64,000 nucleotides of DNA from assembly GCA_951406725.2 (NCBI GenBank), contig OX597831.1:63364001-63428000 (forward strand), written 5' to 3'. The DNA comes from Octopus vulgaris. Lineage: Eukaryota. Each line of letters begins with the position of its first letter. Position 1 is the first letter of the stretch. This document shows positions 26,074 to 26,651 of this stretch, piece by piece. The position numbers were made by a program.

Positions 26074-26111
<38 letters not shown>

Positions 26112-26651
26112 CGTATATTTGCCATTCGAATATGGCTAACCCCTAAGGGTGGATGCTACTGTAGTTTGTAGCCCCAGGAAGACACCTCCTCCAGCTGGCT
26201 ATAGACACACTTTCTGTGCCCTATCAGTATTTATGAAGGGAAGTCATCCTTCCCGTCTTCAACTTATGATACACACGGACTCGAGTTTCAAGGTATTGAC
26301 CTATCATCGGCGTGTGACAATCATAGTTGTCGACGAGAAGTCAGTTTCCCTCACAAATACATATACTTTTTCCAGTATCGATTGACACTGATATTGAAAA
26401 AGTGAAATCAAACAATGATAAATCTCAGAGCGAGTTACAAACAGTAGCGGTAACACATCGTGACGTATATTTGCCATTCGAATATGGCTAACCCCTAGGA
26501 AGACACCTCCTGGGGCTACAAACTACAGTAGCATCCACCCTTAGGGGTTAGCCATATTCGAATGGCAAATATACGTCACGATGTGTTACCGCTACTGTTT
26601 GTAACTCGCTCTGAGATTTATCATTATATATATATACATATTTATAAATGC

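What the first reader, a model, noticed from the sequence alone, without database searches (positions are those of the whole stretch)
26108..26625. Circularly permuted 352-nt HHR monomer resembling a copy of a circular or multimeric RNA
Seen: between two (TA)n tracts, a unit runs 26108-26459 and restarts at 26460. A 118-bp inverted segment (26508-26625) then reads straight across the end-to-start junction and keeps the ~30 bp that the second direct copy has lost. One HHR per monomer lies on the minus strand, and there is no meaningful ORF. Established: metazoan retrozymes are monomers of a few hundred nt with one type I HHR that form circular RNAs. Inference: this is an integrated cDNA made from a circular or tandem RNA template with a template switch, giving the inverted end typical of PLE-driven insertion.
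Basis: partly seen in the sequence, partly recalled or inferred. Interest (0 to 1): 0.82.

Follow-up and report, generated by a model that had tools for sequence, protein, structure and literature searches.

The report
Hammerhead-like retroelement copy in TA microsatellite
A 518-base insertion in a TA microsatellite looks like a DNA copy of a small, ribozyme-carrying, non-coding RNA that was longer than one unit (circular or multimeric); it is a probable new example of a known class, not a new kind of element.

Summary
The repeat geometry is real and exact. A 352-bp unit (26108-26459) restarts at 26460. The restart lacks 30 nt. A 118-nt inverted segment (26508-26625) crosses the unit junction and keeps those 30 nt. 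All duplicated parts are 100% identical. No other copy lies in the window.

The minus-strand hammerhead has the usual metazoan type I layout, and its 2-bp helix III carries a palindromic loop. Core position 4 is C instead of U. It scores 17.8 bits against an Rfam cut-off of 34, and only in a 96-nt search. A relaxed descriptor of my own found it in the window and in 0 of 300 shuffles.

The unit is highly self-paired as a circle (z -5.6), has no real ORF, and sits between two copies of AAATGC(AT)n, a candidate target-site duplication.

Best reading: a dead-end cDNA of a retrozyme-like RNA longer than one unit.

The PLE attribution is not shown. The window holds no PLE gene. An APE-type LINE 0.6 kb away has the same kind of direct/inverted compound end at (AT)n. 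Family-level and RNA tests could not be run.

The parts
26071..26107 (.). Left copy of the candidate target-site duplication, AAATGC(AT)n. At least 16 nt are shared with the right copy.
   Evidence: AAATGCATATAT occurs 2 times in the window, both on the + strand, at 26071 and 26646. Expected 0.11; 1 of 100 shuffles reached 2. Sequence.
26108..26459 (-). Full 352-nt unit. The sense strand is taken as the hammerhead polarity: S1 = 26459, S352 = 26108.
   Evidence: Circular fold -116.9 kcal/mol against -84.0 +/- 5.9 for 200 shuffles, z -5.58, GC 42.3%.
26266..26324 (-). Type I hammerhead-like motif. Helix I is 6 bp, then an internal loop, then 5 bp. The core reads CCGAUGA (C at position 4). Helix II is 4 bp with a U.U at its base. 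GAAA follows. Helix III is 2 bp with a UCGA loop, inside the 8-nt palindrome ACUCGAGU. GUC cleavage lies between 26278 and 26277.
   Evidence: Rfam Hammerhead_1 at 26316-26272: 17.8 bits (cut-off 34), E 0.038, model positions 1-45 of 45. Own descriptor: 1 hit in the window, 0 of 300 shuffles. All 17 pairs are Watson-Crick. The dimer cofold forms the intermolecular 8-bp helix: -37.3 against 2 x -15.5 kcal/mol.
26460..26497 (-). Restart of the unit (U1-38 = S315-352), 100% identical.
   Evidence: (D3).
26497..26511 (-). U69-83 (S270-284) in direct orientation. U39-68 is deleted between CCCCTA and CCCCA. The stretch is a near-palindrome, AGGA...TCCT.
26508..26625 (+). Inverted 118-nt block: the reverse complement of U1-72 followed by the reverse complement of U307-352. 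It reads S281-352 then S1-46 on the + strand and keeps the 30 nt lost from the direct restart.
   Evidence: 72 of 72 and 46 of 46 identical. I1, 84-nt arms, 100% complementary, 44 nt apart.
26626..26645 (.). TA-rich 20-nt filler or 'tail' between the insertion and the right duplication copy.
   Evidence: PLE insertions are described with 30-40 bp tails (PMC8557442 passage), so this is only a loose resemblance.
26646..26661 (.). Right copy of the candidate target-site duplication, AAATGC(AT)5, followed by (TG)n.

Best explanation
The locus is a young, dead-end retro-insertion of a small non-coding RNA that carries one type I hammerhead-like motif per 352-nt unit. That makes it a retrozyme-like, non-autonomous element.

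Inferred mechanism:
1. A nick in an AAATGC(AT)n target primed reverse transcription on an RNA longer than one unit, either a circle or an uncleaved multimer.
2. Synthesis began at unit position S352, which is 170 nt from the ribozyme cleavage site. It ran about 1.24 turns, to S270.
3. The strand then changed polarity at the 4-nt AGGA/TCCT microhomology. This happened either by snap-back of the nascent cDNA on itself or by priming from the second nicked target strand at S46 (twin priming). The result is the 118-nt inverted block at the element's 5' end.
4. A 30-nt deletion between CCCCTA and CCCCA then broke the centre of the resulting near-perfect palindrome, or it arose by a polymerase jump during synthesis.

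With only one hammerhead, this copy cannot release a unit-length RNA.

What is shown: the geometry, the hammerhead-like motif, the self-pairing and the flanking duplication. What is inferred: the RNA intermediate, its topology, the order of events and the enzyme.

The literature favours a Penelope-like element as mobiliser. The window allows a (TA)n-targeting LINE equally well.
For: - Exact period-352 restart and an inverted block that crosses the same junction.
- The outer ends lie at different unit positions (S352 and S46), and neither is the cleavage site S182/183.
- Hammerhead_1 match over the whole model, E 0.038 after multiplication by 4227 families in 96 nt. By my arithmetic that is about 9e-6 for the one family named beforehand, or about 0.006 scaled to the whole window.
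- Descriptor controls: 0 of 300 and 0 of 100 shuffles.
- The layout equals the canonical metazoan one: helix I 6 bp, helix II 4 bp, helix III 1-2 bp with a palindromic loop (PMC4209133 passage).
- A U.U at the base of helix II together with a 2-bp helix III is described for the axolotl HHR_Amex2, which sits in 350-bp repeats (PMC7229834 section 15).
- The dimer forms the 8-bp intermolecular helix III.
- Circular fold z -5.6, GC 42%, no ORF above 69 aa. Retrozymes are described as 170-400 nt, under 50% GC, highly self-paired, with target-site duplications above 4 bp (PMC7229834 sections 13 and 14).
- Flanking AAATGC(AT)n copies.
- The published retrozyme model postulates tandem cDNA made from a primed circRNA (PMC7229834 Discussion).
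- Monomer derivatives are described as non-transposing offspring (preprint 10.64898/2026.07.22.740005, Results part 1).
Against: - The hammerhead is far below the Rfam cut-off. It was absent from the gathering run and from the 901-nt E-value run.
- Core position 4 is C where the consensus has U. Whether that abolishes cleavage is not tested.
- My descriptor was written after I had seen the motif.
- The local minimum-energy fold pairs part of the core differently (-15.5 against -8.9 kcal/mol for the catalytic fold). The 86-nt fold has only z -2.3.
- There is only one locus in 64 kb, so no family, no array, no permuted starts and no covariation could be seen.
- No PLE gene lies in the window.
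- The same kind of direct/inverted 100%-identical structure exists at a LINE end next door. It could equally reflect a DNA-level process at (TA)n.
- The right-hand 'duplication' lies in TA-rich sequence with a 14-nt periodicity of its own.
Confidence: 0.58

Rival explanations
1. A linear, SINE-like non-autonomous retroelement with fixed ends (S1 to S352), mobilised by the (TA)n-targeting LINE machinery seen in the window. The head-to-tail restart comes from a template jump between two RNA molecules. The inverted block comes from twin priming. The hammerhead is vestigial or fortuitous.
For: - An APE-type LINE 3' end 0.6 kb away abuts (AT)28 and has direct (38 nt) plus inverted (98 nt) partial copies at 100% identity.
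- tRNA-like SINEs occur as head-to-tail pairs in (TA)n.
- The hammerhead is sub-threshold and has a C at core position 4.
Against: - In the LINE, and in the SINE pairs, the copies share one terminus, and the SINE units are separated by a TA tract. Here the units join S352|S1 with no TA between them.
- The inverted block starts at S46, not at S352.
- The unit's 3' end shows no similarity to the LINE or SINE 3' ends.
Confidence: 0.17
2. DNA-level origin. A piece of a 352-bp satellite array, or of an extrachromosomal circle derived from one, was captured at a break in the fragile (TA)n tract. A replication fold-back or template switch then made the inverted block. No RNA intermediate is involved.
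For: - A perfect 252-bp palindrome centred on (AT)28 lies next door (I1). This shows that palindrome-forming events occur at TA tracts in this sequence.
- The microhomologies at both internal junctions (1 nt and 4 nt) fit replication-based switching.
- Hammerhead-bearing repeats were first described as satellite DNA (PMC7229834 section 15).
Against: - The flanking copies of AAATGC(AT)n of at least 16 nt suggest staggered nicks, as in target-primed insertion.
- No array of the unit lies in the window.
- The polarity of the inverted block relative to the ribozyme strand matches the retroelement pattern. That would be a 1-in-2 coincidence.
Confidence: 0.13
3. The inverted block, and the neighbouring palindrome, are assembly or read artefacts at low-complexity TA tracts. 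The true locus would be a simple unit of about 1.1-1.2 lengths.
For: - Both inverted structures are 100% identical to their partners and lie beside TA tracts.
- PLE-type structures are said to cause assembly problems (PMC8557442 passage).
Against: - The inversion point here lies inside the unit, not in the TA tract.
- The direct arm carries a 30-nt deletion that the inverted arm lacks, which a simple fold-back chimera would not give.
- The window has no N.
Confidence: 0.07

Closest known systems
Metazoan non-LTR retrozymes (Cervera and de la Pena 2020, PMC7229834), such as the mussel repeats of 350-390 bp and the axolotl Rtz_353 with HHR_Amex2
   Same: - Unit of 352 nt with one type I hammerhead-like motif per unit.
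- GC under 50%, no ORF, strong self-pairing.
- Target-site duplication longer than 4 bp.
- Helix III of 2 bp with a tetraloop, and a U.U at the base of helix II, as described for HHR_Amex2.
- A palindromic helix III that allows a dimeric ribozyme.
   Different: - Only 1.24 units, with a single hammerhead, instead of arrays of two to many units.
- Core position 4 is C.
- No family, RNA or circle has been shown.
- The host appears to be an octopod. Two searches found no description of retrozymes in cephalopods: one search found 5 papers (4 listed), one search found 2 (1 listed), and none of those listed reports one.
Penelope-like element insertions: pseudo-LTRs, inverted 5'-truncated copy, tail, (TA)n bias (Craig et al. 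2021, PMC8557442; Cervera and de la Pena 2014, PMC4209133)
   Same: - Partial tandem plus an inverted partial copy at the 5' end of the sense strand.
- Insertion in a (TA)n microsatellite.
- Extra bases at one end.
- A hammerhead in the repeated part.
   Different: - No RT or GIY-YIG ORF here or elsewhere in the window.
- The inverted copy does not share the terminus of the direct copy.
- The filler is 20 nt and TA-rich, not a 30-40 bp tail.
- Naiads, the clade named for (TA)n bias, lack canonical hammerheads and are said to be old remnants in cephalopods.
Twin-priming inversions of LINE-1 insertions
   Same: An inverted 5' segment joined to the direct 3' segment at a short microhomology, with a small deletion or duplication at the joint.
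   Different: Here both segments cross a unit junction, which requires a template longer than one unit.
Newt satellite 2 and schistosome hammerhead repeats (as cited in PMC7229834 and PMC4209133)
   Same: Repeats of about 330 bp carrying a type I hammerhead with a weak helix III that acts as a dimer.
   Different: Those occur as long arrays. This is a single dispersed insertion with an inverted end.

Membership tests
Hammerhead ribozyme type I (Rfam RF00163) | Score at or above the curated gathering cut-off (34 bits) | tested here: not met
   17.8 bits, and only in the 96-nt search. No match in the gathering run or in the 901-nt E-value run.
Hammerhead ribozyme type I (Rfam RF00163) | Conserved catalytic core (CUGANGA ... 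GAAA ... UH) | tested here: not met
   The core reads CCGAUGA: C at position 4 where the consensus has U. GAAA and GUC are present. The canonical pattern has 0 matches in the window.
Hammerhead ribozyme type I (Rfam RF00163) | Three helices, with helix I open and helices II and III capped | tested here: met
   Helix I is 6 + 5 bp, helix II 4 bp, helix III 2 bp; all 17 pairs are Watson-Crick. The descriptor found this in 0 of 300 shuffles.
Hammerhead ribozyme type I (Rfam RF00163) | Self-cleavage | not testable with these tools
   Needs in vitro transcription of the monomer and the dimer.
Metazoan non-LTR retrozyme | Short tandem repeats (150-450 bp), each carrying a type I hammerhead | tested here: inconclusive
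   The period of 352 is shown by two junction crossings, but there are only 1.24 units and one hammerhead.
Metazoan non-LTR retrozyme | Multicopy family in the genome | not testable with these tools
   One locus in 64 kb. No animal genome collection was on hand. A scan of bacterial and archaeal contigs found 0 matches.
Metazoan non-LTR retrozyme | Expressed as unit-length linear and circular RNA | not testable with these tools
   No transcript data.
Metazoan non-LTR retrozyme | Non-coding, GC under 50%, highly self-paired, no LTR/PBS/PPT, target-site duplication above 4 bp | tested here: met
   ORFs of at most 69 aa. GC 42.3% and z -5.58. Candidate duplication of at least 16 nt. PBS and PPT were not specifically searched.
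PLE-mobilised insertion | Partial tandem with an inverted 5'-truncated copy at the 5' end | tested here: met
   The orientation agrees with the hammerhead strand. The same pattern is seen for an APE-type LINE, so it is not specific.
PLE-mobilised insertion | Autonomous PLE (RT plus GIY-YIG EN) with related sequence in the genome | tested here: inconclusive
   None among the 59 ORFs of at least 100 aa scanned with Pfam, out of 94 found; 35 low-complexity ORFs were left out. Relatives of the RT fragment at 7316-7816 carry no GIY-YIG. The rest of the genome was not available. Octopus genomes are reported to hold recently active PLEs (PMC13282606 passages).

The most novel reading that the evidence does not exclude
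The locus is a fossil of rolling-circle reverse transcription of a ribozyme-processed circular RNA in a cephalopod. The two nicked strands of one (TA)n target started cDNA at two different points of the circle (S352 and S46), and both products ran through the same closed junction. That would be direct genomic evidence for the circRNA-template step that the retrozyme model only postulates. It would also open the possibility that a (TA)n-specific LINE, rather than a Penelope-like element, does the work.
Probability: 0.25. Interest if true: 0.6.

Novelty: new member of a known kind. Interest (0 to 1): 0.4.

Why it matters
If the family exists genome-wide, it would extend hammerhead retrozymes to cephalopods. 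The papers I could search do not describe them there. It would also give one clean, undiverged insertion whose architecture records how the template was read: more than one turn, two different start points and a polarity switch at a 4-nt microhomology. That makes the postulated circRNA-to-cDNA step, and the identity of the mobilising enzyme (PLE or TA-specific LINE), testable with ordinary genome and RNA data. As a single copy with a non-consensus ribozyme core, its value alone is modest.

Tried and rejected
- **Rfam on the whole window at gathering score:** 0 matches.
- **Rfam E-value search on 25900-26800:** 34 matches, none a hammerhead. The top hit, MIR6217 at 26445-26594 (66.3 bits against a cut-off of 110), merely reflects the 84-nt hairpin.
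- **Canonical hammerhead pattern:** 0 matches in the window, with 1.13 expected by chance.
- **Other copies in the window:** none beyond chance words of 23 nt or less.
- **Scan of bacterial and archaeal contigs with a 26-base pattern from the ribozyme:** 0 matches. It was a long shot aimed at host contamination in MAGs.
- **tRNA-derived SINE idea for the unit:** ARAGORN found 0 genes in the window.
- **MITE or Helitron idea:** the termini GTGACG... and ...ATCATT are not inverted repeats of each other and show no Helitron-type ends (reading).
- **Second hammerhead-like motif at 24959-25005 (+):** it passed my relaxed descriptor but got no Rfam hammerhead match at E of 10 or less. Its local fold has z -1.2. 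It shares no similarity with the unit. It stays a lead only.
- **My first hand-written dot-bracket for the ribozyme:** it was shifted by one column and gave a meaningless +29.9 kcal/mol. It was redone.
- **Search for a statement on tolerance of core position 4 in PMC6155905:** nothing specific found.
- **Supplementary figures of PMC7229834:** these hold the mussel ribozyme families and the integration model and could bear on the comparison, but supplements were closed.

Full report
**1.

Reading the region, the repeat finder and a blastn of the unit against the whole window give one consistent map.
- The unit U1-352 is 26108-26459.
- U1-38 recurs at 26460-26497 (38 of 38 identical).
- U69-83 follows at 26497-26511 (15 of 15), so 30 nt (U39-68) are missing. 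The gap lies between CCCCTA and CCCCA.
- The reverse complement of U1-72 (26508-26579) and then of U307-352 (26580-26625) follows, both 100% identical.
- The direct and inverted parts overlap by 4 nt (TCCT, the complement of AGGA).

The 118-nt inverted block therefore crosses U352|U1 and keeps the 30 nt that the direct restart lacks. It forms an 84-nt perfect hairpin with a 44-nt spacer (I1). No other copy of the unit lies in the 64 kb; the remaining matches are words of 23 nt or less with E of 0.77 or more. The window has no N and is 36.3% GC.

**2. The hammerhead.**

On the minus strand the sequence reads as follows:
- Helix I, 5' strand (AUGAU, internal loop, CACACG).
- Core CCGAUGA.
- Helix II, AGGU/ACCU, closed by a U.U.
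- GAAA.
- Helix III, AC/GU, with loop UCGA.
- C17, with cleavage between 26278 and 26277.
- Helix I, 3' strand (CGUGUG, one unpaired base, AUCAU).

All 17 pairs are Watson-Crick.

Rfam results were mixed. It found nothing at gathering score and nothing in a 901-nt E-value search. Given only 96 nt, where the tool's filters are laxer, it aligned the whole Hammerhead_1 model (positions 1-45 of 45) at 17.8 bits, against a cut-off of 34, with E 0.038. That E-value is already multiplied by 4227 families.

A relaxed type I descriptor of my own gave 1 hit in the window and 0 hits in 300 dinucleotide shuffles. I wrote it after seeing the motif; it allows C or U at position 4 and a mismatch at the base of helix II. 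Allowing any single mismatch in the core heptamer gave 2 hits in the window and none in 100 shuffles.

The layout equals what is described as canonical for metazoan type I hammerheads: helix I 6 bp, helix II 4 bp, helix III 1-2 bp with a small palindromic loop, active as dimers (PMC4209133 passage). A 2-bp helix III together with a U.U at the base of helix II is described for the axolotl HHR_Amex2, which lies in 350-bp repeats (PMC7229834 section 15). ACUCGAGU is an 8-nt palindrome. A cofold of two copies forms it as an intermolecular helix (-37.3 against 2 x -15.5 kcal/mol).

Evidence against a working ribozyme:
- The C at core position 4.
- The failure to reach the Rfam cut-off.
- The local minimum-energy fold keeps helices I and II but pairs part of the core differently (-15.5 against -8.9 kcal/mol). 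The 86-nt fold has only z -2.3.

I therefore call it hammerhead-like, not a filed member of RF00163.

**3. The unit as an RNA.**

Folded as a 352-nt circle in the ribozyme polarity, it reaches -116.9 kcal/mol against -84.0 +/- 5.9 for 200 shuffles (z -5.58). The other polarity gives z -4.93. GC is 42.3%. The three ATG ORFs of at least 30 aa that overlap the insertion are 50, 57 and 69 aa long. ARAGORN finds no tRNA-like gene. Size, GC, self-pairing and lack of coding fit the published description of metazoan non-LTR retrozymes (PMC7229834 abstract and sections 13 and 14).

**4. The flanks.**

AAATGCATATAT occurs twice in the window, both times on the + strand, at 26071 and 26646. That is just outside the two ends of the insertion. 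The expected count is 0.11, and 1 of 100 shuffles had 2. I read AAATGC(AT)n, at least 16 nt, as a candidate target-site duplication. The empty site would be ...GTCAAATGC(AT)nGTGT.... A TA-rich 20-mer (26626-26645) lies between the element and the right-hand copy. The caveat is that this right flank has a 14-nt periodicity of its own.

**5.

*Host.* A LINE reverse transcriptase at 31426-33801 (RVT_1 plus zf-RVT) has its best named relative in the octopod Argonauta hians, at 63% identity. The host is therefore probably an octopod-like cephalopod. This is weak evidence.

*The window is full of (TA)n tracts, and several retroelements sit in them:*
- tRNA-like SINE pairs lie at 12365-12817 and 51946-52452, with TA tracts between and after the units.
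- The 3' end of an APE-type LINE lies at 25475 to about 26070, minus sense. Its ORF P0121 is 65% identical to P0122, a 1033-aa protein with RVT_1 and Exo_endo_phos_2.

*That LINE end abuts (AT)28.* It is accompanied by an inverted copy of its last 98 nt and a direct copy of its last 38 nt, all 100% identical. Together they make a perfect 252-bp palindrome. So (TA)n targeting and compound direct/inverted ends are not specific to Penelope-like elements here.

*No PLE gene was found.* I scanned 59 ORFs of at least 100 aa with Pfam, out of 94 found; 35 low-complexity ORFs were left out. The relatives of the RT fragment at 7316-7816 show RVT_1 and a weak zf-RVT, with no GIY-YIG.

In the SINE pairs the units are separated by TA. 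In the hammerhead element the units join with no TA between them, and the two outer ends are at different unit positions (S352 and S46). That is what a template without a fixed end would give.

**6. Mechanism.**

*Shown:*
- An insertion of 1.24 units plus a 118-nt inverted block.
- Two crossings of the unit junction.
- Ends that are not at the cleavage site (S182/183).
- Microhomologies at both internal joints.
- A flanking duplication.

*Inferred:* target-primed reverse transcription from the + strand (AT)n end on an RNA longer than one unit (a circle or an uncleaved multimer), followed by a polarity switch. Two variants fit.
- *Snap-back.* The nascent cDNA ends in ...AGGA AGACACC TCCT. It pairs on itself and copies back U68 to U1 and then U352 to U307, all of which it already contains. 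The resulting palindrome, with 118-nt arms and an 11-nt spacer, later loses 30 nt from one arm. Central deletion of long palindromes is established knowledge, recalled here.
- *Twin priming.* The second nicked strand primes at S46 on the same long template, and the two cDNAs join at the 4-nt microhomology. The 30-nt gap is then a polymerase jump or a variant neighbouring monomer.

I cannot separate a circle from a multimer with one locus. With a single hammerhead, this copy cannot release a unit-length RNA. It fits the 'monomer derivatives' described as non-transposing offspring (preprint 10.64898/2026.07.22.740005, Results part 1).

**7. Comparison and novelty.**

The closest known class is the metazoan non-LTR retrozyme, whose model postulates tandem cDNA from a primed circRNA and names LINEs or PLEs as possible mobilisers (PMC7229834 Discussion). 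The 2026 preprint argues for a PLE origin in vertebrates (abstract and Results part 1). PLE insertions are described with partial tandems, an inverted 5'-truncated copy, a 30-40 bp tail and microsatellite bias (PMC8557442 passages). The same paper says that Naiads, the (TA)n-biased clade, lack canonical hammerheads and are old remnants in cephalopods. Octopus vulgaris is reported to have 31 recently active PLE families (PMC13282606 passages).

Two full-text searches found no description of hammerhead repeats or retrozymes in cephalopods. 'Hammerhead ribozyme' plus 'octopus' found 5 papers, 4 listed. 'Retrozyme' plus 'cephalopod' found 2 papers, 1 listed. None of those listed reports one. I rate this a probable new member of a known kind.

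**8. Limits.**

The only public scan possible covered bacterial and archaeal contigs and found nothing. Paper supplements were closed. So copy number, arrays, permuted starts, covariation, RNA circles and support for the inversion from reads all stayed unchecked.

Noticed in passing
window 25286-25572 (with 25475 to about 26070): A 5'-truncated APE-type LINE (minus sense; ORF 25555-25959) ends at (AT)28. Its last 98 nt recur inverted at 25321-25418 and its last 38 nt recur direct at 25286-25323, all 100% identical. This gives a perfect 252-bp palindrome centred in the (AT)28 tract.
   Followed up: partly
window 24706-25158; motif at 24946-25014 (+): A second hammerhead-like motif with a consensus-type core (CUGACGA ... 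GAAA ... UA, cleavage after 25005). It lies in the centre of an element of about 450 bp with 93%-complementary inverted arms (24706-24813 and 25049-25158) whose right end abuts (AT)n. It passed my relaxed descriptor (2 hits in the window, 0 in 100 shuffles). Rfam gave no hammerhead match and the local fold is unremarkable. It shows no similarity to the 352-nt unit.
   Followed up: partly
window 12365-12817 and 51946-52452: Two head-to-tail pairs of one tRNA-like SINE family, in opposite orientations. The units are about 241-249 bp, are 86% and 98% alike within each pair, and are followed and separated by (TA)n. ARAGORN calls no tRNA.
   Followed up: no
window 31426-33801 (+), 7316-7816 (-), 42003-42938 (+), 53110-53643 (+): Other mobile-element remains: a 791-aa open frame with RVT_1 and zf-RVT whose best named relative is in Argonauta hians (63%); an RT fragment; a zf-RVT fragment; and a mariner-type transposase fragment.
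   Followed up: partly
protein P0018: A protein labelled as coming from a Herbaspirillum MAG is 62% identical to the cephalopod-type LINE reverse transcriptase. It is probably host DNA binned into a bacterial genome.
   Followed up: no
window 6985-7053 and 46260-46299: Short interstitial telomere-like arrays, (CCCTAA)11.5 and (TTAGGG)7.
   Followed up: no
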